Shown piece by piece: positions 9,741 through 55,377 of a stretch of 64,000 nt of DNA; positions within the stretch are counted from its first letter, which is position 1, and each line of letters opens with the position of its first letter. The position numbers and the translations under genes were made by a program. Location of the stretch: positions 192,001 to 256,000 of IMG/VR virus record IMGVR_UViG_3300029288_000056. One strand, written 5' to 3'. The notes under the pieces are model-generated. The model ran no database searches. It had not been told where the DNA came from and was given only the letters and a program-made list of their open reading frames with translations. Source of the DNA: a virus. Its lineage: Duplodnaviria > Caudoviricetes.

Positions 9741-12700
9741 TTACGCGAGATGGACGTTGACTGCCCCAAAGGTGTCGCAAATCCTATCTATCAGATCCCA
9801 ATTAGCCTCAATGCGGTGGTTTGCGCTAGTCCTTATGAGTCTGTCCCCCATTCTCAAGTACAGGTCTAGACCTAAGGACTTTCCACTTGAACTGTTTTTC
9901 AAGAACTCCATATTGTCATCAGTCTGATTCTCATCGTTAATCTCTATGGTGATTTTTTGGAAATTGCGGCCTCTGTATTCGTTTAATTCGTATACTTGAT
10001 TGGCGATAATCTTCGGCAACTGCATACCTAGACTACTGGAACCAATCACGATAACAGGGTTATTAACCTTAAGTTTTCCAGACTGCTTCTTAAACAAGTC
10101 GGCAAAGACGATCATCTCAAACTCACCGGTCTTATCCTTGGCCTTTATGAAGGCCATTCGATTCCCCTTCTTGTCAATATGATCTCTCACGACTGTGATT
10201 ATGCCACCAACTATAACCGGCCTTTTCTCTTCGTAGGACGTCATGTCGGAAGCGAAGTCTTGAGTAAACAGGGACAGCCTCTCAATCTTTTCATTGAGCG
10301 GATTTCCACTAAGATAAAAACCTAGCGCGTCTTTCTCATGTTCTAGTTGTTCGTCGTCGCTCCACAGAGCGGGAATCGCCGAAAAGACGTCTTCAGTTTC
10401 GTCGCTCCAGAAGCCTACGGCCCCCTTCTTCTTTTCGGAATGTTTAGACTTCGAGATGCTTTCAACAATAGACATATACTCCGCACGGCTATGGCCAAAC
10501 TTATCGAAACAGCCGGCTTTTATCAAAGACTCGATTACTTTCTTATTCACCGTGTTGAGGTTTACCTTGTTACAAAAGTCGGTAAGGCTTACAAAGGCGC
10601 CCTTGGAGTCCCTAGTTTCTTCGATGTGTTTTGCGGCACCAATACCAACGTTCTTGAGCGCAGCCAAGCCGTAGAGAATAGAACCGTCTCTTATTGTAAA
10701 GTTAGCCTTACTCTCGTTGACATCGGGCAAAAGAAAGTTTATCTTATCTTTACGGCAAACCGTTATGTACTCGGAAATCTTCTCTGGATCGTTTGACTCA
10801 GAAGTTAAGCAAGAAGCCCAAAATTCTAGAGGATAGTGGTACTTCAGATAAGCCGTCTGATAAGCAAGAACCGCATAGGCCGTAGCATGAGGCTTGTTAA
10901 AACAGTAGTCAGCAAATGGAATGATGATGTTCAAAATCTGTTCTGCGACCGCCGTATCTACACCGTTAGCCTTGGCGCCTTCTAAGAAGCGCGGCTTAAT
11001 CTTGTCTAGGGCCGCGTAGTCACCTTTGGACATGATCTTTCGCAGTATATCACCCTCTGCAAGAGTGAACCCCGCAAGGGCTTGTGCCATCTGCATGATC
11101 TGTTCTTGGTAGAGGAACACGCCGTAAGTGTCTTTAAGGATGGGTTCGAGCTTCGGGTGAATATAGGTTATTTCCTTACTGTGAACCTTTGAGTTGATCC
11201 AACCATCCACCATACCACTACCTAACGGGCCGGGGCGATACAGGGCGTTGATAGCCATAAGGTCCTCTATGCAAGAGACTTTCCCTCGTTGACACAAATC
11301 CCTCATGCCGTCGGTTTCAAATTGAAAGACACCTTCACCCTTACCCGCTGCAATCATAGCAAAGACGGCTGGGTCGTCCAACTCCCTCATCCTAACCCTA
11401 GCTTCTTTGTCAACTAAGGAAAGCGTGTCTTCAATTAGGGTTAAGGTCTTTAGCCCTAGAATGTCAATCTTCAACAGGCCTACGTCGGTCACGGAATTCA
11501 TGTCGTAGCCAACCATGAGTTCATTCTTAGATCTACACATAGGAGCGTAGTCGGAAATATCACCCGGGGAGACTACCAACCCCGCTGCATGCATACCTAT
11601 ATTTCGGATCACACCCTCAAGTGGCAGACCTTTGTCTATTATATCGTGGCACTGGAAGTCTTCATCATACAGTTTACGCAGATCGGGAGAAACCCTCAAA
11701 GCCTCGTTCAAGTCTTTTGCGGTTTCTGGGATCGCTTTAGCCAGCTTGTCGGTAAGGGAGTAGTCTACACCCAACACCCGGCCTACATCTCTAACGACAC
11801 TTCTTGCACCCAGAGAGCCAAAGGTGATAATCTGGCTAACGGCGTTTTCTCCCCATCTAGTCTTAATGTAGTCTACGACTTCTCCCCTGCGAGAATCTTG
11901 GAAGTCAGTATCTATGTCGGGAGGTGAAATACGATCGGCGGTTAAGAACCGTTCAAACAGGAGGTTGAACCGCATTGGGTCTACGTTAGTGATTCCGAGA
12001 CAGTAACTAACTATAGCCCCACTAGCAGACCCTCGCCCGGGACTTACCGCTATACCTTGACTAACTGCGTATTTGATGATGTCCCACACAATCAGGAAAT
12101 AACCGGAGAAGCCGGTCTTCTCAATGACTGAGAGCTCGTATTCTATTCTCTCTCTGATCTTATCGTCGTATTCGCCATAGTTCTTTGTGGCGCCTTCTCT
12201 TACGAGTGACGCGAGGTACTCATACTCGGAACCGAACTCACTCGGAACATTGTATGAAGGGAGTCGGTTCACACCTAACTCAATATTAATGTCACATTGT
12301 TCTGCCACTTCCAGCGTATTCGTCAAGTACTCTTCGTCAAACTTTTCTCGCATCTCGTCAAAGTCTTTGAACCACATTTGATCTGAGGAAAATTTGAAGC
12401 GCTTCTCGTCGGACAGCTTAGATCCGGTTTGTATGCATAATAAGATCTCATGGGAGACAGCATCTCTGGCGTTAACATAGTGTGAGTCGTTCGTTGCCAC
12501 AACCTTAACACCCATCGTCTTGGCCAGTTCTATGAGCATTGGCATAACACGAATTTCGTCGTCAATGTTATGATCTTGAACCTCTACAAAAACCGACTCA
12601 GAGCCGTAGATTTGACGGTAGAAGTCCAACTCGGTTTTAGCTCCGTCAAGGTCCCCTCTTAATAAGAGCTGCGGAATCTTACCCTGTAGGCAGCCCGTCA

Positions 12701-28700: not shown

Positions 28701-31700
28701 CCGGTGCGCCACAGCTACAGTTAAATATCGTAAACAGCTCTCTGCCCTTTCCCTCTAGCCCGGTGATAATCTCACAAGGTATCCAAGGTGTGGTCCTTTT
28801 GTTCCATGCCTCCACCTTAATCATATGGGTGGGGTCCTTACTACATTGGGCAATATAGCTCATCTGCGATCCTCGCTATCTATAGCCATTTACGATCCTC
28901 ATATCTATATCCATCAACTAGGCGCTCCGCATATAGCGACTTCATATAGTGCTCTAAGTGAGAATGCCCGCCCCTGTCTTTTCGCTTAGGTGGATTATTG
29001 GGGTCCCTAGGCTCACTACAGCTTACGCCGTATGCGCCGTAATATTGGCGAGAGGTCCATTCACAACGCTCACCATTTGCCTCACAGCCATCTGCGTTGG
29101 GACACCAACGCCACCTCTCGTCACCAAGAGCGATTATCCTGTACTTGTCTTCGAGGTTTCCACCCAGTCCTGCAAGAGCGAGCCCTAATAGCAGTCCCAC
29201 AAAGAAAATAGCAAAAGTAATCGTGTCGTCGTGTGTAGGGTTGGGTAGTGACGAAAAGGCGTATGAGCCTATAGCACCAAAGATGATGAAGATCCATCCA
29301 ACAACGGCCGTATAACCCCAAAACTGTCGCCAAAAATAATACCATTTGTAAGATTTCATTAGTCTTCCATTTCACCCTTTACTAAGGTCCACACCATCAT
29401 TGATACCATGGCGATACCGACCAACAAGTCTCCCAGCCACCAAAGGCTCGGGTCACCCTTTACCATTGCGACGGCGAGAAAGGCCAACAGGAAGTGTCCG
29501 AAGCTCCAAAGGTTCATCCAGAGTCTAATCATTAAGCCACTCCTCCCAAGTGCTGCAGAACAGTGCGAGGGCAAACATAAAAAAGATTATACCCATCGGA
29601 ATAGCAACCCACTCAGTCAGCCCCGCGTTGAATAGCAGGATGGGTATCGCAATAGACCCGATGAAACAAGCGGCGTAAAACAACATCACAAACATTACAC
29701 GAATGTAACCCCAAAAATCTTCCATTATTCCCCTTCGGTAGCGCCTGAGGGTTTGATTTCTAATAAATCATAAGCACCACAGCCGCGATGTTGTTGTATA
29801 AGTATCCAATCACCTTGTTTAACCCAAGCATGCATATAGTTCGGGGTATAGTTACCTTCCCAAAAGCCGCCGTCAACATCACGGACAGCCCACAGTTTAC
29901 CGTCTATGTGGATACTATCAACATGAACCCATGTCGGTTTAGCGTCACAACATATCAGCGTCATCATCAATAGTAAGGAAACCTTCATCATGTTTTTAAC
30001 TTTCATTATTATCCTCCATCAACAATCTATCATAGGTCTATTCTGAAGTCAAGCGATATTTTAGAGATACGCTATCCAGTTAATTAACGGATAGATAGCG
30101 ACTAATACTAAGATCCCAACTGCAATAATGAGCGCCCAGAATAAAGTCTGTATAGCTCGATCCATCTTCAAGGAACCTTGCATACGCTTCCGCCAAAACT
30201 CCACGCGTTTCCTGTATATCTCCCTTTGAGGAGAGTCGAGCAGTATGCTATACATATGATAGCTGTGAGCTTCTGCCCAGCTCGGGAACTTGAATATAGT
30301 AGCAACGACGCTGAGTGTGACGACTAGCAGTGTTATAATGGGAATCAGTATCATTATTCCTCCTTAAGAACTTTCTCAATAGTCTCGTCCAGTGCCTTAC
30401 TGAGTTCCACCAAGAAGTCAGTACGCACCAGATCAAACGCTTCCGCACCTTCATAATCTTCTTTGTCTGTATAAGTTCTGCGATGTGTTTCGAACAACCG
30501 AGATGTCGTCTGAAGTGCCCTGTTTCTAACACGCATCAATTTTTCACAAAGGGTTATGTAGGTGACCGCGTCTTTGCGCGTTTTAAAGCCACCCTCGTCT
30601 GCACAGGAGCCGGAACATTCGATTATCCATTCATCTTCATCATAGCATCCGGTTTCACTTTTGTATATACTTAAAGTTCCGGCGCATTTTGGGCATCTAA
30701 AAGTTTTCTCCATTACTCTCCTTTTCGGTTATGCCGAGTTTATCGAGAACTTCCATAATCATCTCTATCACCATATTCACAAGACTGGCGTTACCCATTC
30801 CCGGGCCGACGATTGCACAGACTTTCTCTCGCAGATTCTCGATCTGTCCTGCGAATAAGTACTCATCCTTAAAACTCGCCGCCACTCTTTCGGCCATGTT
30901 TGCGCGCTCATCCTGCCTGATTCGCTCATCATGTTCTTTTTGATAATTTTCTTTCCAGATAACGAGTTCATCGGTTAAGCGAGTGATTTCCGCATAACAG
31001 TCCTTCACGTGACCCCACTTATGCGATTCACTGGTGTGACAGTTCCAATCGTTTATATCTATTCGCTCAAACATATTCTTCTCCATCGATGTTTAATTTA
31101 GTCATCACATAAAGCACCCGAATACCCAGTGGTATCCCGATGATACTCACGAAACACACAATGGCCACTAAGAACAGAACAAGATAAGCCATAACTTTGA
31201 GTATGAATATCATTTTTTGCTTCTTATCCTCGCCAGCTCTGATGCATAGAAGTCCTTATAGCTTTGTTCTAATGCATTAAGCTGGCGGCCTGCTGATATT
31301 GCTGCTATCATGAGTGCGATAAACATCGCTAACCCAACTCCAATAATTATCCAAAGAAATGTAGAATCCATTACTCCTCCAAACTATAGTAGGATGCCTT
31401 AACGGCGTTGATTATAGAGGACAAAACCATAATGAGCGCGGCCACAAACATCATGATTATAACCCATACACCCACATGATATCCAAAGTTTTGCACAGGA
31501 TTATCACCCATCATTTTCACACCCAGACACGATAGACCGAATAAGACTGGCGCGAGAATGATCTGATATATCGCCATCAACAAGTGACGAACTACTTTAT
31601 CCATTTTGTTTCTCCAAGTATCGTTTCAACTGAAGTAACGACCTTTCTACACCGTCTATTACTTCGTCCGTGAATGTCGCAAGGTTTGCCCAAAACTCTT

Positions 31701-46941: not shown

Positions 46942-46970
46942 ACTATATCATAAGTCGTTAGAAAAGTCAA
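46942..46970 (-). promoter_or_regulatory. Sigma70-type phage promoter (copy 12)
   Basis: TTGACT-17-(TGA)TATAGT, immediately after Y-RNA-like copy 1 and its T tract. Confidence 0.8.
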
Positions 46971-46980
46971 GCAAAAAAAA

Positions 46981-47065
46981 TAGAGAACAGGTTGAGGTGA
47001 GATATTGGGTTTCCCGGATTTTTGGTGGAAAATTTTATCAATGTAATCCCACAAGCATTTCTCTA
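46981..47065 (-). ncRNA. Y-RNA-like stem-loop 1 (minimal), ends in a T8 tract
   Basis: Terminal stem TAGAGAA/TTCTCTA; core AATGCTTGTGGGATTACATT ... ATCTCAC..CCTGT shared with three other copies around the TROVE gene. Confidence 0.75.
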
Positions 47066-47338
47066 ATTTAAATCAAGTAAAGCTGGATTTGTATATCTAA
47101 ACTTCAGTCTACTGACCACGGACTCCACTTCACTAATGGCGCCAGAGTTTTCAGCGTTATAACCCTTACCATAAAGCTCCGCCAAAATCCTCTCCACACA
47201 ATCGATGGCTTTCTTAAGCGGTTTCCAACCCCAGTTCTCGTAAACTCCCGTCATTGCGGAATTTGCTACTCCGCGCGCTATGATCATCCACTCGTCGTAA
47301 GTGAACTCCATAGACCATTTTTCATTGAATGTTCTCAT
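47063..47338 (-). CDS. Hypothetical protein inside the Ro60/Y-RNA array
   Basis: 91 aa; TAG stop overlaps the 5' end of Y-RNA-like copy 1. Confidence 0.6.
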   Translation of the reverse strand: MRTFNEKWSMEFTYDEWMIIARGVANSAMTGVYENWGWKPLKKAIDCVERILAELYGKGYNAENSGAISEVESVVSRLKFRYTNPALLDLN

Positions 47339-47825
47339 TCTTTTTCGCCACCTCGGGATTTTTTGCCGCTAAGTCCACAAATCTTAATAGACTCATGATT
47401 TCATTCTCCATTACCTTACGATCATCTTCGGTTGCTTCTTGTCTCTTTTTAAATAGATTAAATATAACCTGTGCCTGCATCTCTGTACATTTACCAGCCT
47501 TCATACACGTATTTATTTTGTCTATTAAAAGCTGCCCCACTTCGTGTTGATCCGCAAAGTCATATCTCAATCTATCATAGTGAGTGTGAATCTTCGGCTC
47601 AAAGTCTGTGGTGCGGTCAAATTTCATATTTCTGATCGTTTTTTGCTCAAAGCTTTCCTTATTTTCTTCCGCTAGTGTATCTGCGACTTTGCGTACAAAG
47701 CTTCCCAAATCGTCTATCGCACTGATAACTTCTTTTGATATTTCGTCGCCACTTTCGATCAGTCTGTCGACACTATACTTAATCTTATCCTTAAGTTTTG
47801 CAAGTTCTTCAATAAATTCCATCAT
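47322..47825 (-). CDS. Hypothetical helical protein inside the Ro60/Y-RNA array
   Basis: GGAGGTG RBS, ATG at 47825/47822; charged and predicted helical. Confidence 0.7.
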   Translation of the reverse strand: MMEFIEELAKLKDKIKYSVDRLIESGDEISKEVISAIDDLGSFVRKVADTLAEENKESFEQKTIRNMKFDRTTDFEPKIHTHYDRLRYDFADQHEVGQLLIDKINTCMKAGKCTEMQAQVIFNLFKKRQEATEDDRKVMENEIMSLLRFVDLAAKNPEVAKKNENIQ

Positions 47826-47844
47826 ATTCACCTCCGAAATAAAA

Positions 47845-47967
47845 TACCAGAACAGAATCGGCGAGATTTGCACCTCATTTCTGAGGTTGCCGGTTATTAG
47901 TCGGCCGCTTTTGCAGGGTATTCCCCTGCTGCAATTGTAATGTAATCCCTAACCAGCATTTCTGGTA
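47845..47967 (-). ncRNA. Y-RNA-like stem-loop 2 with a three-hairpin junction
   Basis: Terminal stem TACCAGAA/TTCTGGTA; core AATGCT..GGGATTACATT ... ATCTC..CTGT; TTGCA/TGCAA closing hairpins GCAGGG/CCCTGC, GCCG/CGGC and ACCTCA-GAAA-TGAGGT. Confidence 0.78.
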
Positions 47968-47972
47968 AAACT

Positions 47973-48107
47973 TTTCGGGACAGAGTTAGTGAGTCGTATT
48001 TACGCGCTCCACCAGTTGAGCTATCTCGGCATAATGAGCCGAGAGTGGGATTCGAACCCACAACCACGTGCTCCATAGGCAATGTATACCCACAAGCATT
48101 CCCGAAA
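47973..48107 (-). ncRNA. yrlA: YrlA-like Y RNA with a circularly permuted tRNA-like domain
   Basis: Terminal stem TTTCGGGA/TCCCGAAA. Inside: T-arm GTGGG-TTCGAAT-CCCAC, acceptor stem TCTCGGC-TCATTAT-GCCGAGA closed by a loop, then D-arm GCTC-AACTGGTG-GAGC. Adjacent to the TROVE gene. Confidence 0.88.
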
Positions 48108-48113
48108 TATGGA

Positions 48114-48166
48114 ACGGACAATTGGTGACTAATCCGGTTGCGGTAAGATATAGCCACCAATGCCGT
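48114..48166 (-). other. Structured hairpin between the TROVE stop codon and the YrlA-like RNA
   Basis: ACGG-CA-TTGGTGGCTA ... TAGTCACCAA-TTGT-CCGT. Confidence 0.55.
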
Positions 48167-48169
48167 GTA

Positions 48170-49732
48170 TTACAAATCTATACTCTCTATAACCTCAACG
48201 AACTGATCCACATCGTTTCCGTATTTCATGAACATACTTATCACGTTATATACGGAATCGCTGAACCCGCCCACGTTGAGAATTTCTTTACTGTTATGCG
48301 CTTGAGTGGACGTATTTGGCGCCAAGTCTATACAAACTAACTTTGCACCCGGATTGTGTTGCTTAAACTTCTTCCACTCATCCATCGTTGAAGTTCCTCG
48401 GTAGCTGTCCTGACTATCCACCCATGATTCGTTGTCAGATAGATAGATGCAAAGATCGCCCTTCTTGCCGTTTTGATTCAAAAAGGCCAATGCTGTGGAG
48501 CAACTTGTGCCTCCACCGCTACTACCTCCGATTTCTCTTGCGTTTGTAGCAATAGAATCTAGAGGGTTGATCCCACTCATAAGTTGTGCTCTGGTCGCAA
48601 ACTGTATAACTTCTGCAGTTGGATTCTTGCGCAAAATAGAAGCCGCAAACAGACCCGCCACGTTACAACAACTGACTTTAGAAGTAGCACTTCCTCTTTG
48701 GCCGGTCACGGGAGAACTCATAGACCCAGAGACATCAACGAACAGCCAAACCTTTCCCTCAATCTCAGGTATATTCTCCGCCGAATAGTCAAGAGCCTTT
48801 TGTAGCGCTATGGTTATCTCGCGTGGCATTTCGCTTTGCGCGAACATGTAAGCCGTAAACAGTTGATAAGGAAATGTTCTGGACTTTTTCACAAGTTCAG
48901 CATCCATCAACTGACTAACAACGTATTGCACCATTTCTTTGTCTTCAAAGACTTTGTGACGTAGAAGCGTATTGAGATTGATTCTCAATTGGTTCCAAGT
49001 CATAGTCTTTGCGAGCGCCTTCCAATGTGCATCGGTAAGGCTCAGGGACGTTAGCATCTCAAATGGAACTTCTGGAAACGCGACAGACTCCCCGTTAGTA
49101 AGAGCTTTCTTAAACAACTCGTACGCTTTTAGGTCGTCTGGTAGTAAAACGTCGTTAAACTCGCGGCCCAACACGTAGTTGATCGTATTCTCGCGTTCTT
49201 TGTTTACGGGTTTTGGGTGAACCATCTTTATAATATCAGACATTGATGGATCACTTCCTGTGACGAAAGCCACGTAAGAATCGGTCCAACTGTTGATCAA
49301 GCCGGCAAGTTGTTTCTTGAGTGAAGTACCAAAGGATTGGCGACCGAATTTATTCGAACGAATTGCTTGTACGAAGTTTCGTATCATCTTTCCGTTGGTT
49401 ACGACCTTTGGAAACGCCTTTTTAAATTGAGCCAAAGCCTCTGGAGTCTTGCAACCCGCTAGATAAGCCAATAGCGCAACCGGCATGTCCTTCATCAAAC
49501 CACGAGTCGCAGAATAGACCGCGGTCTTGGCGATAAAGGTAGGATCAACTTGAGGTAGATACTTGTAGAGATGGGCGAGTTGGTCTCCCCCACTTGCGTA
49601 GTAGGTGCCGTTAAAGCAGCCGGTTACAGCTAACTGCGCGATGGCGTGCTTTGCACTCATTGAATACGCAATTCCACCTGCGTCATTTACTGCGTCTGCA
49701 GGTTTGACACCGTTAAACACGTTCTTGTTCAT
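48170..49732 (-). CDS. rsr: Ro60/Rsr-like TROVE-domain ribonucleoprotein with a vWA domain
   Basis: NDAGGIAY, TGCFNGTYY, GRQSFG, MVHPKP, LRINLNTLLRH, FPYQLFTAY; vWA MIDAS VDVSGSM; GGGT; LSDNESW; VGGFSD. Confidence 0.93.
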   Translation of the reverse strand: MNKNVFNGVKPADAVNDAGGIAYSMSAKHAIAQLAVTGCFNGTYYASGGDQLAHLYKYLPQVDPTFIAKTAVYSATRGLMKDMPVALLAYLAGCKTPEALAQFKKAFPKVVTNGKMIRNFVQAIRSNKFGRQSFGTSLKKQLAGLINSWTDSYVAFVTGSDPSMSDIIKMVHPKPVNKERENTINYVLGREFNDVLLPDDLKAYELFKKALTNGESVAFPEVPFEMLTSLSLTDAHWKALAKTMTWNQLRINLNTLLRHKVFEDKEMVQYVVSQLMDAELVKKSRTFPYQLFTAYMFAQSEMPREITIALQKALDYSAENIPEIEGKVWLFVDVSGSMSSPVTGQRGSATSKVSCCNVAGLFAASILRKNPTAEVIQFATRAQLMSGINPLDSIATNAREIGGSSGGGTSCSTALAFLNQNGKKGDLCIYLSDNESWVDSQDSYRGTSTMDEWKKFKQHNPGAKLVCIDLAPNTSTQAHNSKEILNVGGFSDSVYNVISMFMKYGNDVDQFVEVIESIDL

Positions 49733-49771
49733 TTTTATTCTCCTTTTTAGGAAACAGTTATGAAAAGATTA

Positions 49772-49846
49772 AGATGGGACAGGGGTTTGCTGAGATACGG
49801 TTTTAATTTACAGTTTAAATGTAATCCCAAGCGAGCATTCCCATCT
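49772..49846 (-). ncRNA. Y-RNA-like stem-loop 4 (minimal), in the leader of rsr
   Basis: Terminal stem AGATGGGA/TCCCATCT; core AATGCTCGCTTGGGATTACATT ... ATCTCAGC..CCTGT. Confidence 0.75.
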
Positions 49847-49889
49847 ACAACACTAACACGGATTATGCAAAATAATCCCCTATTATTTT

Positions 49890-49960
49890 CAGGAGTTAAA
49901 GGATTTGAACCCTTACCGGATGTTTTGGAGACATCCATGCTACCATTACACCAAACTCCT
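49890..49960 (-). tRNA. tRNA-Trp(CCA)
   Basis: AGGAGTT/AACTCCT+G; GATGT-CTCCAAA-ACATC; T-loop TTCAAAT; no CCA tail. Confidence 0.92.
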
Positions 49961-49965
49961 ATGTA

Positions 49966-50874
49966 TTACAGATCTTCTCTATCTCTGAAGCCCAAAAAGA
50001 TAGGCTCACGTGGAAGGTCCTTTGTACCGATTTTCTGATACTTGTATTTAATCATTTTTCCAACGTATCGATCTTGGTTATCCCATATCTCTTGTCGCAA
50101 CTCATGTGTTAATCCCTGCCCGGTTCCAATGTCAAACTGTATTCCCTCAAAGTCGCCTATACCGACGACTAGAAACTTTCCTAGTGTGTTTGCTGGAACC
50201 TTACCTTCCTTAGAGAATGAACGTTTAGTTCTACCAAACGCATCTTTCTCGGCCTCGTTCAGGTTGTGCATCATCTCTTCAAAACCAACAATTCTTCCCT
50301 CTGCATCCTCAAATGGCTTTATCTTCAGGAGAATTCTTTCCCTCAAAGATGAGCGGCCAAACTTATATTCCCCATCTATTTTACGGATCATAGTTCCCTC
50401 GTATCCAGACTCCAGATGTAAGACTATGATTTCATTGAGGGCTTTTTCATTCATTATTAGAGTTTCCTCCACGATTTCCAGTTTAGTATGTCCGTTTTTT
50501 TCTACAAAAGCAGAATACCAATCTGTGATGTCCTTTATTCTACTTATAAATGGCTTTGCCGGCTCGTCTTTCACATAATCAAAGATAGAATAAACAAAAT
50601 CCGGTTCGCCATCCATGGACGAAATCGCGGAAGAGCAATCTTGAAATGTCTTGCCCGCGGTAAGCTCACCGTCTAAACCGTCCGGCAGTTCTAACCCCTC
50701 CAGATAGTTTCTGATGTATGCGTTTCTAATCGGTTTGAAGGATCTACTTAAGGCTTTTCCTTGAACCATCAAGCAACGGTGTCCATCAATCTTTGGGGAT
50801 GCATAAACGGGATACTGTACATCCCTCATGTCGTGGATCGTCTCAGCTAAAAGTGGCTTTGTTATTTTTCCCAT
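49966..50874 (-). CDS. lig: Minimal ATP-dependent DNA ligase
   Basis: PLLA, motif I PKIDGHRC, LDGEL, FD, EGTMIR, YKFGRS, LLKIK, LREPIFLGFR; start ATG 50874. Confidence 0.93.
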   Translation of the reverse strand: MGKITKPLLAETIHDMRDVQYPVYASPKIDGHRCLMVQGKALSRSFKPIRNAYIRNYLEGLELPDGLDGELTAGKTFQDCSSAISSMDGEPDFVYSIFDYVKDEPAKPFISRIKDITDWYSAFVEKNGHTKLEIVEETLIMNEKALNEIIVLHLESGYEGTMIRKIDGEYKFGRSSLRERILLKIKPFEDAEGRIVGFEEMMHNLNEAEKDAFGRTKRSFSKEGKVPANTLGKFLVVGIGDFEGIQFDIGTGQGLTHELRQEIWDNQDRYVGKMIKYKYQKIGTKDLPREPIFLGFRDREDL

Positions 50875-50880
50875 GTTTGA

Positions 50881-50909
50881 ATTATAATACAATTTAAGAG
50901 AAAAGTCAA
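50881..50909 (-). promoter_or_regulatory. Sigma70-type phage promoter (copy 13), leaderless for the DNA ligase
   Basis: TTGACT-17-TATAAT-6 nt-ATG. Confidence 0.85.
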
Positions 50910-50924
50910 GCACTTTCTTACAAT

Positions 50925-50955
50925 AAAAAACCGCCTCTTTTCGCAAGAAGCGGTT
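50925..50955 (-). terminator. Rho-independent terminator
   Basis: AACCGCTTCTT-GCGAA-AAGAGGCGGTT followed by a T tract. Confidence 0.8.
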
Positions 50956-54165: not shown

Positions 54166-55377
54166 TTAACTAACTCTGTTAAATAGGATGTTTTTATCCA
54201 TCAAAGTATTATTACTTTGTTGACGCTTCACAGGGGAGATTGAGACCTCTAGCCCTCCACGTCCAGCACCGGCTAACCGTCCGGCATTTAATATATTAAT
54301 CGCTGCGTTTGTGTCCCTATCATGTTTTGCTCCGCAAACACAAGTCCATTCTCTATCTTTTAGGGTAAGATCGTTGTTGATATATCCACAAACAGAGCAG
54401 ATCTTACTAGATGGGAACCAACGGTCTATAAAAATAATAGAACCGTTTTTCCATCGTTCTTTATATCCTATCTGTCTTACGAATTCACGCATAGATGCAT
54501 CCGCAACCGCACCGGCAAGATGATGATTTTGCATCATGCCACTTATATTAAGATCCTCCAGATATACAATATTATATTTCTTACAAATTCTTGACGTGGC
54601 CTGATTAATTGTGTCATTCCTCTTATCTGCAATGCGTTTGTAAATACGTTGGACTCTTAGTTTAGCTTTTTGTCTGCGTTTACTCCCTACCTCTTTACGA
54701 GCTAATTGTCGTTGCGCTTGTGCTAATAATTTTTCCAAATGTTGTCCGTGTTTAGGATTCTCAAACTTACACCCATCACTTGTGGTCGCAAGCGTTTTTA
54801 CACCTAAATCTATACCCACTTCCCTTACTTGGTTATCGCAAGGGTTCTGGGTTTCAACTTCAACCGTAAACGAAGCGTACCACTTTCCCGCTTGTTCACT
54901 AATCGCAACTGTACCAACTAATTTTCCCTGAAAACGTAAAGACTGACACATACGTACCCACCCGAGTTTTGGAATACGCACTTTGTTATTATCAAGAGCT
55001 ATCGTGCCGGTCTCTAAGTGAAAAACCAGCCTATCTTGTTTTCTACTCTTAAACCGCGGAAACCCCGGTTTACCAGATTTATTCTTAACTCTTCTAAAAA
55101 AGTTAGTATAAGCAAAATCAAGTTGCTGTAACGCTAAACGGGGAATACTTTTAGGCACACCAGATAACCAAGTGTGAGTTGAATATTTCATTATCGTTAT
55201 TTTTGTAGCTAAAATATACGCGCCCGATGTCTTATTTGTGTTTTTGTATTCAGTCTGTTTACTTTCTAATCCAAAATTATAGGCAAAACGGTGGGCGCCC
55301 GCATACTTAACAAACTCAACTTTTTGAGTATCATTCGGTAGTAGTTGTATCTTATGAGATTTATGTATCAGTATCAT
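54166..55377 (-). mobile_element. tnpB: Solo TnpB (IS200/IS605-family RNA-guided nuclease), no TnpA
   Basis: HKIQLLPN N-terminal HTH, RFAYN, PRFKSRK, RuvC GIDLG / YLEDL / DRDTNAAINI, Zn finger CSVCG..C.C. Confidence 0.92.

What the first reader, a model, noticed from the sequence alone, without database searches (positions are those of the whole stretch)
46981..49846. Phage Ro60 locus with an array of four Y-RNA-like RNAs: shared core, different modules
Seen: in transcription order the locus is Y4 (49772-49846), rsr/TROVE, a hairpin, Y3 (47973-48107), Y2 (47845-47967), orf, orf, Y1 (46981-47065), then a T8 tract. Each RNA has a different but perfectly paired 7-8 bp terminal stem (AGAUGGGA/UCCCAUCU, UUUCGGGA/UCCCGAAA, UACCAGAA/UUCUGGUA, UAGAGAA/UUCUCUA), which is covariation. 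All four share a core: 5' AAUGCU..GGG(AU/UA)UACAUU and 3' CUC...CUGU. Their interiors differ: Y3 is a tRNA mimic, Y2 a three-hairpin junction, Y1 and Y4 short loops. Established: Ro60/Rsr binds the terminal stem of Y RNAs, whose second module tethers effectors (e.g. PNPase in Deinococcus), and Y RNAs are encoded next to rsr, including in some phages. Inference: this is a modular phage Ro RNP system in which one protein is paired with four RNAs, using a core motif that I do not recognise as the canonical Y consensus.
Basis: partly seen in the sequence, partly recalled or inferred. Interest (0 to 1): 0.93.

Follow-up and report, generated by a model that had tools for sequence, protein, structure and literature searches.

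The report
Jumbo-phage Ro60 with eight Y RNAs
A 297-kb uncultured phage encodes the ring-shaped RNA-binding protein Ro60 and eight small Y RNAs that share the docking stem already known from Salmonella Y RNAs but carry different middle parts. This is a known kind of particle with an unusually large RNA repertoire.

Summary
Four RNAs on the minus strand (Y4, Y3, Y2, Y1) flank a 520-aa Ro60/Rsr gene. They share a 7-8 bp closing stem, an AAUGCU...GGG(WW)UACAUU 5' core and a CUC...CUGU 3' core (4 matches, 0 expected by chance).

The "unrecognised" core is the canonical bacterial handle. The enterobacterial-type YrlB and YrlA carry it, and Y3 matches Rfam YrlA at 52.8 bits (E 2.6e-10, below the gathering score of 69).

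My handle-only covariance model finds seven copies in the whole genome, plus an eighth weaker one. Four of these lie 34-211 kb from the Ro60 gene. Y6 and Y7 sit directly upstream of tRNA genes, and the others lie near tRNA-like sequence.

Across 72 copies from about 20 phage contigs, 94% of handle pairs are kept, against 62% in shuffles. All 13 pairs show changes on both sides. Ro60 is present in all four near-complete contigs that carry the handle. Relatives carry 5 to 11 or more copies, often abutting tRNA genes.

Most likely, one phage Ro60 is paired with many modular Y RNAs that are cut out of tRNA operons. This is a new variant of a known kind.

Expression and binding are untested. This scan has noted similar arrays on other DNA.

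The parts
49889..49961 (-). tRNA-Trp(CCA), 42 nt upstream of Y4 in the same transcription direction
   Evidence: ARAGORN; Rfam tRNA 61.5 bits
49772..49846 (-). Y4: 75-nt short Y RNA. Closing stem AGAUGGGA/UCCCAUCU, helix 2 UUGGGAU/AUCUCAG, small interior.
   Evidence: Model R1 58.6 bits, E 1e-10; constrained fold; no Rfam match
48170..49732 (-). Ro60/Rsr orthologue, 520 aa: TROVE ring plus a vWA domain with a DxSxS MIDAS motif (VDVSGSM)
   Evidence: Pfam PF25045 1e-16 and PF05731 3e-5; PHROG 850; PDB 2NVO E 4e-19 and phiLo Ro60 9KOP E 1e-15; MIDAS motif read
48114..48166 (-). Long hairpin of about 19 bp directly after the Ro60 stop codon. A possible processing site or stabiliser between the mRNA and Y3 (inferred).
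   Evidence: Fold -21.3 kcal/mol, z -3.7
47973..48107 (-). Y3: 135-nt YrlA-type Y RNA. The handle carries a permuted tRNA mimic: T arm, a 7-bp sealed hairpin, then a D arm.
   Evidence: Rfam YrlA 52.8 bits, E 2.6e-10, below the gathering score of 69; R1 30.8 bits although not in the seed; fold
47845..47967 (-). Y2: 123-nt Y RNA. The handle carries a three-hairpin junction that is cloverleaf-shaped but has no T or D loop sequence.
   Evidence: R1 34.2 bits, E 5e-5, although not in the seed; fold z -4.4; constrained fold
47322..47825 (-). ORF of 167 aa (ATG at 47825, preceded by GGAGG), function unknown
   Evidence: No Pfam or PHROG family; no homologue in the other Ro60 loci fetched
47063..47338 (-). 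ORF of 91 aa, function unknown
   Evidence: No Pfam or PHROG family; no homologue in the other Ro60 loci fetched
46981..47065 (-). Y1: 85-nt short Y RNA. Closing stem UAGAGAA/UUCUCUA, helix 2 GUGGGAU/AUCUCAC.
   Evidence: R1 58.3 bits, E 1e-10; constrained fold
46973..46980 (-). T8 tract directly after the closing stem of Y1. A likely transcription end for the locus (inferred).
   Evidence: Sequence
46942..46970 (-). Promoter-like site of the phage's recurrent type (TTGACTTTT-N11-RTGWTA) that starts the next transcription unit
   Evidence: Promoter scan 10 of 12 with an extended -10; 27 copies of the motif in the genome

Best explanation
The locus is a phage Ro60 (Rsr) ribonucleoprotein system with an enlarged Y RNA repertoire. 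The phage makes one Ro60 ring protein and eight Y RNAs. Each Y RNA has the same docking handle. The handle consists of a 7-8 bp closing stem, an internal loop with invariant AUGC on the 5' side and YUUG/CUG on the 3' side, and a 6-9 bp second helix with a conserved G.U pair followed by UACAU. This is the handle of the Rsr-bound Salmonella-type YrlA and YrlB RNAs, so Ro60 most likely binds it (inferred by homology, not shown here). Above the handle each RNA carries a different module. Y3 and Y7 carry YrlA-type permuted tRNA mimics, Y6 carries a tRNA-order (D then T) mimic, Y2 carries a three-hairpin junction, and Y1, Y4, Y5 and Y8 have short interiors. By analogy with the Deinococcus and Salmonella Ro60-Y RNA-PNPase machine and the Thermus phage phiLo Ro60-Yrl-host PNPase complex, the modules are inferred to gate the Ro60 cavity or to tether it to different host or phage factors, such as host PNPase or tRNA-binding enzymes. 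The RNAs are probably co-transcribed with rsr or with tRNA genes. Their ends are probably set by tRNA-processing enzymes, by a dedicated promoter in the case of Y6, and by a U8 terminator in the case of Y1.
For: 1. The handle is real and specific. There are 4 matches in the window against 0 expected and 7 in the 297-kb genome, all on one strand.
2. Model R1 was built on the handle alone. It recovers exactly these 7 at E <= 3e-4 and nothing else at E <= 1, including Y2, Y3, Y6 and Y7, which were not in the seed. An eighth copy scores 29.9 bits.
3. Across 72 copies, 94.1% of handle cells are paired, against 62% in shuffles and 37-51% when the partner is slid. All 13 pairs show changes on both sides, and the covariation score is 0.825 against 0.21.
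4. The handle is the same as in the enterobacterial-type rsr-yrlB-yrlA locus. Rfam scores YrlB at 105 bits and YrlA at 70.9 bits in L003, and R1 hits these at 39.8 and 34.3 bits. Those RNAs co-immunoprecipitate with Rsr (Chen et al. 2014, PMC4201824).
5. Y3 and Y7 match Rfam YrlA at E 5e-12 and 2e-9.
6. Ro60 is present in 7 of 10 handle-bearing contigs and in 4 of 4 that are at least 90% complete. Only 334 of 50,697 phage records have any Ro60 match.
7. Relatives carry tandem arrays next to Ro60.
8. In relatives the units abut tRNA genes with gaps of 0-10 nt. Here Y6 ends about 5 nt before tRNA-His and starts about 11 nt after a phage promoter motif.
9. A phage Ro60 binding two phage Y-like RNAs and host PNPase is published (PMC12135203).
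Against: Only Y3 and Y7 match any Rfam family, and both fall below the gathering score. The published CGAA element of the Rsr-binding motif reads GGAA or GAAA in this phage's copies, so recognition by this Ro60 is inferred rather than certain. Four copies lie 34-211 kb from rsr, outside the usual 'within 4 kb' criterion. Most sequences in the covariation alignment came from a pattern that required the core, and the alignment was fitted to the model. Invariance of AUGC and UACA is therefore partly ascertainment. The phage has no PNPase of its own, and no conserved protein partner sits in the locus.
Confidence: 0.8

Rival explanations
1. Only the YrlA-type RNAs (Y3, Y7) are functional Ro60 partners. 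The short handle-bearing units (Y1, Y4, Y5, Y8, perhaps Y2) are decayed duplicates, or cis-acting processing or stability elements of tRNA and mRNA operons.
For: The short units have no Rfam match. The Y1 and Y4 folds are not clearly better than shuffles, with z of -1.1 and -2.2. They sit at operon junctions next to tRNAs, a promoter and a U tract.
Against: Short units are the best-conserved class across phages, with R1 scores of 55-70 bits, and their handles covary. Salmonella-type YrlB is itself a short handle-only RNA bound by Rsr (PMC4201824). Decayed copies would not keep AUGC, UACA and the G.U pair in 60-72 of 72 copies.
Confidence: 0.1
2. The handle docks a protein other than Ro60, for example a tRNA-processing or repair enzyme of the phage's RtcB, ligase and CCA toolkit. 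Its co-occurrence with Ro60 would then be indirect.
For: Half of the copies are far from rsr and lie among tRNA genes. The genome encodes RtcB. Three handle-bearing contigs show no Ro60.
Against: Those three contigs are fragments, 12-52% complete. All four near-complete ones have Ro60. The same handle is found in RNAs shown to bind Rsr (PMC4201824). Arrays start within tens of bases of the Ro60 stop codon in L001, G001 and G006.
Confidence: 0.06
3. The repeats act at the DNA level, as an operator, a recombination site or a mobile repeat, not as RNAs.
For: It is a dispersed repeat with a highly conserved 20-nt core, and all copies are on one strand.
Against: The two halves of the handle are separated by 30-110 nt of unrelated sequence. 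They keep complementarity through compensatory changes, including G.U pairs, which only make sense in RNA. The YrlA-type interiors match an RNA covariance model.
Confidence: 0.02

Closest known systems
Salmonella/enterobacterial rsr-yrlB-yrlA(-rtcBA) locus: YrlA (Rfam RF02553) and YrlB (RF02565), per Chen et al. 2013 and 2014 (PMC4201824)
   Same: The Ro60 is 44% identical to the enterobacterial-type protein in L003. The handle is the same (AAUGCU..GGGAUUACAU...UUGU). One tRNA-mimic RNA and handle-only RNAs lie on the same strand next to rsr. An RtcB is also present in the genome.
   Different: There are eight RNAs instead of two. Four are dispersed up to 211 kb away in tRNA regions. The extra module types are a D-then-T tRNA mimic and a three-hairpin junction. 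CGAA reads GGAA or GAAA. RtcB is not in the same operon. The genome is viral.
Phage Ro60 with Y-like RNAs: Thermus phage phiLo Ro60 with Yrl1 and Yrl2 (PMC12135203), and mycobacteriophage YrlA (22 phages in PMC4201824)
   Same: A phage-encoded Ro60 with phage-encoded Y RNAs next to the gene. The likely use of host PNPase fits the absence of a phage PNPase here.
   Different: Published phage cases have one or two Y RNAs, all adjacent to the gene. Here and in relatives there are 5 to 11 or more per genome, interleaved with tRNA genes.
Deinococcus radiodurans Rsr with Yrn1 and Yrn2 (the RYPER machine)
   Same: Rsr (2NVO) is the best solved match of the protein. Yrn1 is described as having its D and T arms in the opposite order to YrlA (PMC4201824). 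Y6 has the D-then-T order.
   Different: In this phage both arm orders are mounted on the same YrlA-type handle. No sequence similarity to Yrn1 was tested.
Vertebrate Y RNAs (two to four per species, Rfam RF00019)
   Same: One Ro60 with several Y RNAs that share a Ro-binding stem and differ in the loop module. Y1 is followed by a U tract.
   Different: There is no Rfam Y_RNA match. The binding motif differs, the modules are tRNA-like, and the genes are operonic rather than Pol III units.

Membership tests
Ro60/Rsr protein family | TROVE (HEAT-repeat ring) domain followed by a vWA domain with a MIDAS motif, full length about 500-540 aa | tested here: met
   PF05731 3e-5 and PF25045 1e-16. Aligns over residues 15-502 to Rsr 2NVO, E 4e-19. 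DxSxS motif read as VDVSGSM.
Bacterial/phage Y RNA (YrlA class, Rfam RF02553) | Scores on the Rfam YrlA covariance model | tested here: inconclusive
   Y3 scores 52.8 bits (E 2.6e-10 in the window; 5e-12 per genome) and Y7 43.6 bits (E 2e-9). Both cover the full model length but fall below the gathering score of 69. Y5 scores 28.1 bits. Y1, Y2 and Y4 have no match.
Bacterial/phage Y RNA (YrlA class) | Encoded within about 4 kb of the Ro60 gene and on the same strand (criterion of Chen et al. 2014) | tested here: met
   Y1-Y4 lie within 1.2 kb of the ORF on the same strand. Y5-Y8 are on the same strand but 34-211 kb away.
Bacterial/phage Y RNA (YrlA class) | 5' and 3' ends pair into a long stem that carries the Rsr-binding motif GNCGAAN0-1G (CGAA element) | tested here: inconclusive
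   The stem, internal loop and second helix are present in all eight. The consensus across 72 phage copies is CGAAUGC. This phage's copies read GGAAUGC (Y3, Y4) or GAAAUGC/UAAAUGC, with the change compensated on the 3' strand.
Bacterial/phage Y RNA (YrlA class) | At least one Y RNA per genome with a tRNA-like domain (T arm, sealed stem, D arm) | tested here: met
   Y3 and Y7. Y6 has D and T arms in tRNA order.
Bacterial/phage Y RNA | Physical binding to Ro60, and Ro60-dependent accumulation | not testable with these tools
   Needs RIP, EMSA or Northern blots.
YrlB (Rfam RF02565) | Match to the YrlB covariance model | tested here: not met
   No match for Y1, Y4 or the others at E <= 10. The Rfam model is a narrow enterobacterial family. 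The handle is shared, since R1 hits L003 YrlB at 39.8 bits.

The most novel reading that the evidence does not exclude
Large phages keep libraries of Y RNAs as interchangeable adaptors. One constant handle docks on the phage Ro60, and each swappable module either directs the particle to a different host or phage factor or acts as a decoy for a different tRNA-targeting defence. There are 8 such RNAs here and 5 to 11 or more in relatives. Modules are exchanged between handles: Y1/Y7 and Y2/Y5/Y6 share closing stems but carry unrelated modules. The RNAs are released from tRNA operons by RNase P and RNase Z.
Probability: 0.3. Interest if true: 0.8.

Novelty: new variant of a known kind. Interest (0 to 1): 0.6.

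Why it matters
What bacterial and viral Ro60 particles do is still largely open. Only one or two Y RNAs per bacterium or phage have been described, and homology searches have found only the tRNA-like YrlA type. In 2014, searches with YrlB found orthologues only in other Salmonella serovars.

This work shows that a model of the handle alone finds many more partners, and that about two thirds of them lack a tRNA-like arm. A single phage can carry eight, with at least four module designs. That gives a concrete, testable set of RNAs for asking what each module recruits. It also suggests that Ro60 biology in phages is tied to tRNA operons and to the tRNA-repair toolkit.

The core system itself (Ro60, Y RNAs, the handle) is already known.

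Tried and rejected
- blastn of the locus against 50,697 phage records found no match, so no close named relative exists.
- The exact-pattern scan of IMG/VR returned 109 loci. Most were chance hits inside coding sequence. Only about 20 had a closing stem, and these were kept.
- Alignment A2 put the 3' strand of helix 2 out of register, so I used A1 for the model instead.
- I considered the two ORFs between Y2 and Y1 as Ro60 partners. They have no family and no homologue in any other Ro60 locus fetched, so I make no such claim.
- I looked for a phage PNPase and found none.
- The Myxococcus phage Mx1 locus (Ro60 43% identical) gave no R1 hit within 4 kb either side of the gene.
- My crude D-arm detector under-called D arms, so only the T-arm counts are used.
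- The 2020 Annual Review on bacterial Ro60 is not held.
- I sent no complex or structure jobs, because the tools cannot model protein-RNA binding.
Full report
**1. What is in the sequence**

Read on the minus strand, the region holds these features in order:
- tRNA-Trp at 49889-49961
- Y4 at 49772-49846
- a 520-aa ORF at 48170-49732
- a hairpin of about 19 bp at 48114-48166
- Y3 at 47973-48107
- Y2 at 47845-47967
- two ORFs of unknown function, 47322-47825 and 47063-47338
- Y1 at 46981-47065
- T8 at 46973-46980
- a promoter-like site for the next gene

The 5' core pattern occurs four times in the window, and none is expected by chance.

The ORF is a Ro60/Rsr orthologue. It matches Pfam vWA_Ro60 and TROVE and PHROG 850. 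Its best solved relatives are D. radiodurans Rsr and the Thermus phage phiLo Ro60. A DxSxS MIDAS motif is readable.

**2. The core is the known bacterial handle**

Rfam YrlA matches Y3 over its full length at 52.8 bits, E 2.6e-10, below the gathering score of 69. The YrlA consensus itself reads ...GaAUGCuuggGgaaCUAc...cUuGuc....

An enterobacterial-type rsr fragment, L003, has a Ro60 44% identical to this one. It carries Rfam-certified YrlB (105 bits) and YrlA (70.9 bits). That YrlB reads CGAAUGCUGGCCGGGAUUACAUC...UUUGUCGCG.

In this phage the published CGAA element reads GGAA or GAAA, with compensating changes on the 3' strand.

**3. There are eight copies, not four**

The window is part of a 297-kb virus record that is 94% complete by CheckV. 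The core pattern occurs seven times in that record, all on the minus strand.

I built covariance model R1 from the handle only. It has 13 base pairs and was seeded with 22 short RNAs from this and nine other phage contigs plus YrlB. It finds exactly these seven at E 1e-10 to 3e-4 and nothing else at E <= 1. The seven include Y2, Y3, Y6 and Y7, which were not in the seed. A locus-level search adds an eighth, a 59-nt copy at 29.9 bits.

The four copies outside the window are, in genome coordinates on the minus strand:

| RNA | Coordinates | Features |
|---|---|---|
| Y5 | 29557-29647 | short interior |
| Y8 | 30869-30927 | 59 nt, short interior |
| Y6 | 140116-140244 | preceded by a phage promoter motif, followed after about 5 nt by tRNA-His |
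| Y7 | 275361-275487 | YrlA type, Rfam 43.6 bits; followed after 9-14 nt by tRNA-Tyr |

These rest. The genome has 36 tRNA genes.

Constrained folds show the same architecture in all eight:
- a closing stem of 6-8 bp
- a 5' loop beginning AUGC
- a second helix of 6-9 bp with a G.U pair
- UACAU
- a module
- a pyrimidine-rich 3' loop ending CUG or CCG

**4. The modules differ**

- Y3 and Y7 are permuted tRNA mimics: T arm, sealed hairpin, D arm.
- Y6 has D arm, a 4-bp mini-hairpin and T arm in natural tRNA order, with only about 3 bp of acceptor stem.
- Y2 is a three-hairpin junction without tRNA loop motifs.
- Y1, Y4, Y5 and Y8 have short interiors.

Y1 and Y7 share the stem UAGAGAA/UUCUCUA. 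Y2, Y5 and Y6 share ACCAGAA/UUCUGGU. Their modules are nevertheless unrelated, which points to handle duplication with module replacement. It also means that stem differences within this genome are weak covariation evidence on their own.

**5. Evidence from other phages**

An exact-pattern scan of IMG/VR gave 109 loci. Most are chance hits in genes, but about 20 are true units with closing stems. R1 then found 86 matches in 25 loci at E <= 0.01. Counts per locus at E <= 0.001, unless stated otherwise, are:

| Locus | Matches |
|---|---|
| L065 | 11 |
| L118 | 10 |
| L001 | 7, plus one more at E 0.009 and an Rfam YrlA hit |
| L022 | 5 |
| L059 | 4 |
| L031 | 4 |

On the 72-sequence alignment:
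- 94.1% of cells pair, against 62.3% in shuffles and 37-51% when the partner is slid.
- All 13 pairs show changes on both sides.
- The covariation score is 0.825, against 0.21 in shuffles.

AUGC and UACA are in 71-72 of 72 copies, and the G.U pair is in 60 of 72. There is a caveat. Many of these sequences were found through a pattern that required the core, and the alignment is fitted to the model. The invariance is therefore partly ascertainment. The closing-stem covariation is not, because the stem was not part of the pattern.

About two thirds of the copies (49 of 72) lack a canonical T arm.

**6. Link to Ro60**

Of ten handle-bearing contigs, seven encode a Ro60 that is 41-53% identical to this one. 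That includes all four contigs that are at least 90% complete. The three without it are fragments, 12-52% complete. For comparison, only 334 of 50,697 phage records have any Ro60 match.

In L001, G001 and G006 the arrays begin just after the Ro60 stop codon. G003 and G008 also have copies 16-29 kb away. Dispersed copies are therefore not peculiar to this genome.

**7. Link to tRNA operons**

In relatives the units abut tRNA genes with gaps of 0-10 nt. Examples:
- L065: tRNA-Thr ends at 11708 and a unit starts at 11709.
- L065: a unit at 1223-1323 is followed by tRNA-His at 1327.
- L076: tRNA-Gly, a unit, then tRNA-Thr, with gaps of 1-3 nt.

I infer that RNase P and the tRNA 3'-end enzymes set the ends of the Y RNAs. 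This is not shown.

**8. Mechanism**

Three things are shown:
- a Ro60 gene
- eight RNAs with a conserved, covarying handle identical to that of Rsr-bound RNAs
- co-occurrence of the handle with Ro60

Three things are inferred:
- Ro60 binds the handle.
- The modules gate the ring or tether it to partners, as in the Ro60-Y RNA-PNPase machine (PMC4201824) and the phiLo Ro60-Yrl-host PNPase complex (PMC12135203).
- The tRNA-like modules engage tRNA enzymes.

The phage has no PNPase. It does have an RtcB elsewhere in the genome. A jumbo-phage survey already noted TROVE proteins alongside RNA-repair genes (PMC7824862). The two ORFs inside the locus show no conservation with other Ro60 loci, so I do not propose them as partners.

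**9. Novelty**

Phage Ro60 with one or two adjacent Y RNAs is published. I found no paper describing arrays of 5 to 11 or more handle-sharing Y RNAs, their dispersal among tRNA genes, or both tRNA-mimic topologies on one handle.

This scan has repeatedly noted similar arrays on other DNA and noted Y6 and Y7 on this genome. Those are unchecked notes, and I verified Y6 and Y7 independently.

I rate this a new variant of a known kind. It is solid as an observation, moderately surprising, and lacks expression or binding data.

Noticed in passing
outside the window: G000:C1:291176-293347 (-): RtcB RNA ligase in one 750-aa open frame. Profile positions 1-50 and 46-425 are about 300 aa apart, so there is a large insertion, possibly an intein or an inserted domain.
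   Followed up: no
window 54166-55377 (-): IS605 OrfB/TnpB-like protein with a Cas12f-like TNB domain inside the phage genome (Pfam).
   Followed up: no
whole genome; e.g. window 46946-46970 (-) and G000:140256-140280 (-): A recurrent promoter-like motif, TTGACTTTT-N11-RTGWTA, occurs 27 times at up to 3 mismatches, nearly all on the minus strand just upstream of ribosome-binding sites. One copy drives Y6 directly.
   Followed up: partly
window 48114-48166 (-): A hairpin of about 19 bp lies directly after the Ro60 stop codon (-21.3 kcal/mol, z -3.7). It may be an RNase III-type processing site or an mRNA stabiliser between rsr and Y3.
   Followed up: partly
L001:5570-6760 (+) (IMGVR_UViG_3300034152_000478): About nine tandem Y-like units start about 10 nt after the Ro60 stop codon. 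Their handle is a variant, (A/G)AUGC..GUGWUUACAUG..CUUG. They include one D-then-T tRNA mimic and two YrlA types.
   Followed up: partly
L065 (IMGVR_UViG_3300034782_000062) and L118 (IMGVR_UViG_3300009179_000175): There are 11 Y-like units in L065 and 10 in L118, interleaved with tRNA genes at gaps of 0-10 nt. In L065 one unit directly precedes tRNA-His, as Y6 does in this genome.
   Followed up: partly
window 49966-50946 (-): An ATP-dependent DNA ligase (Pfam, PHROG 114) lies directly upstream of tRNA-Trp and Y4, apparently in the same transcription unit as rsr.
   Followed up: no
L002 (Myxococcus phage Mx1, OR576727.2:52921-62561): Mx1 is the closest named phage with this Ro60 (43% identical). 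It shows no handle-type RNA within 4 kb of the gene, only weak tRNA-Sec-like Rfam hits at L002:972-1056 and 1512-1597.
   Followed up: no
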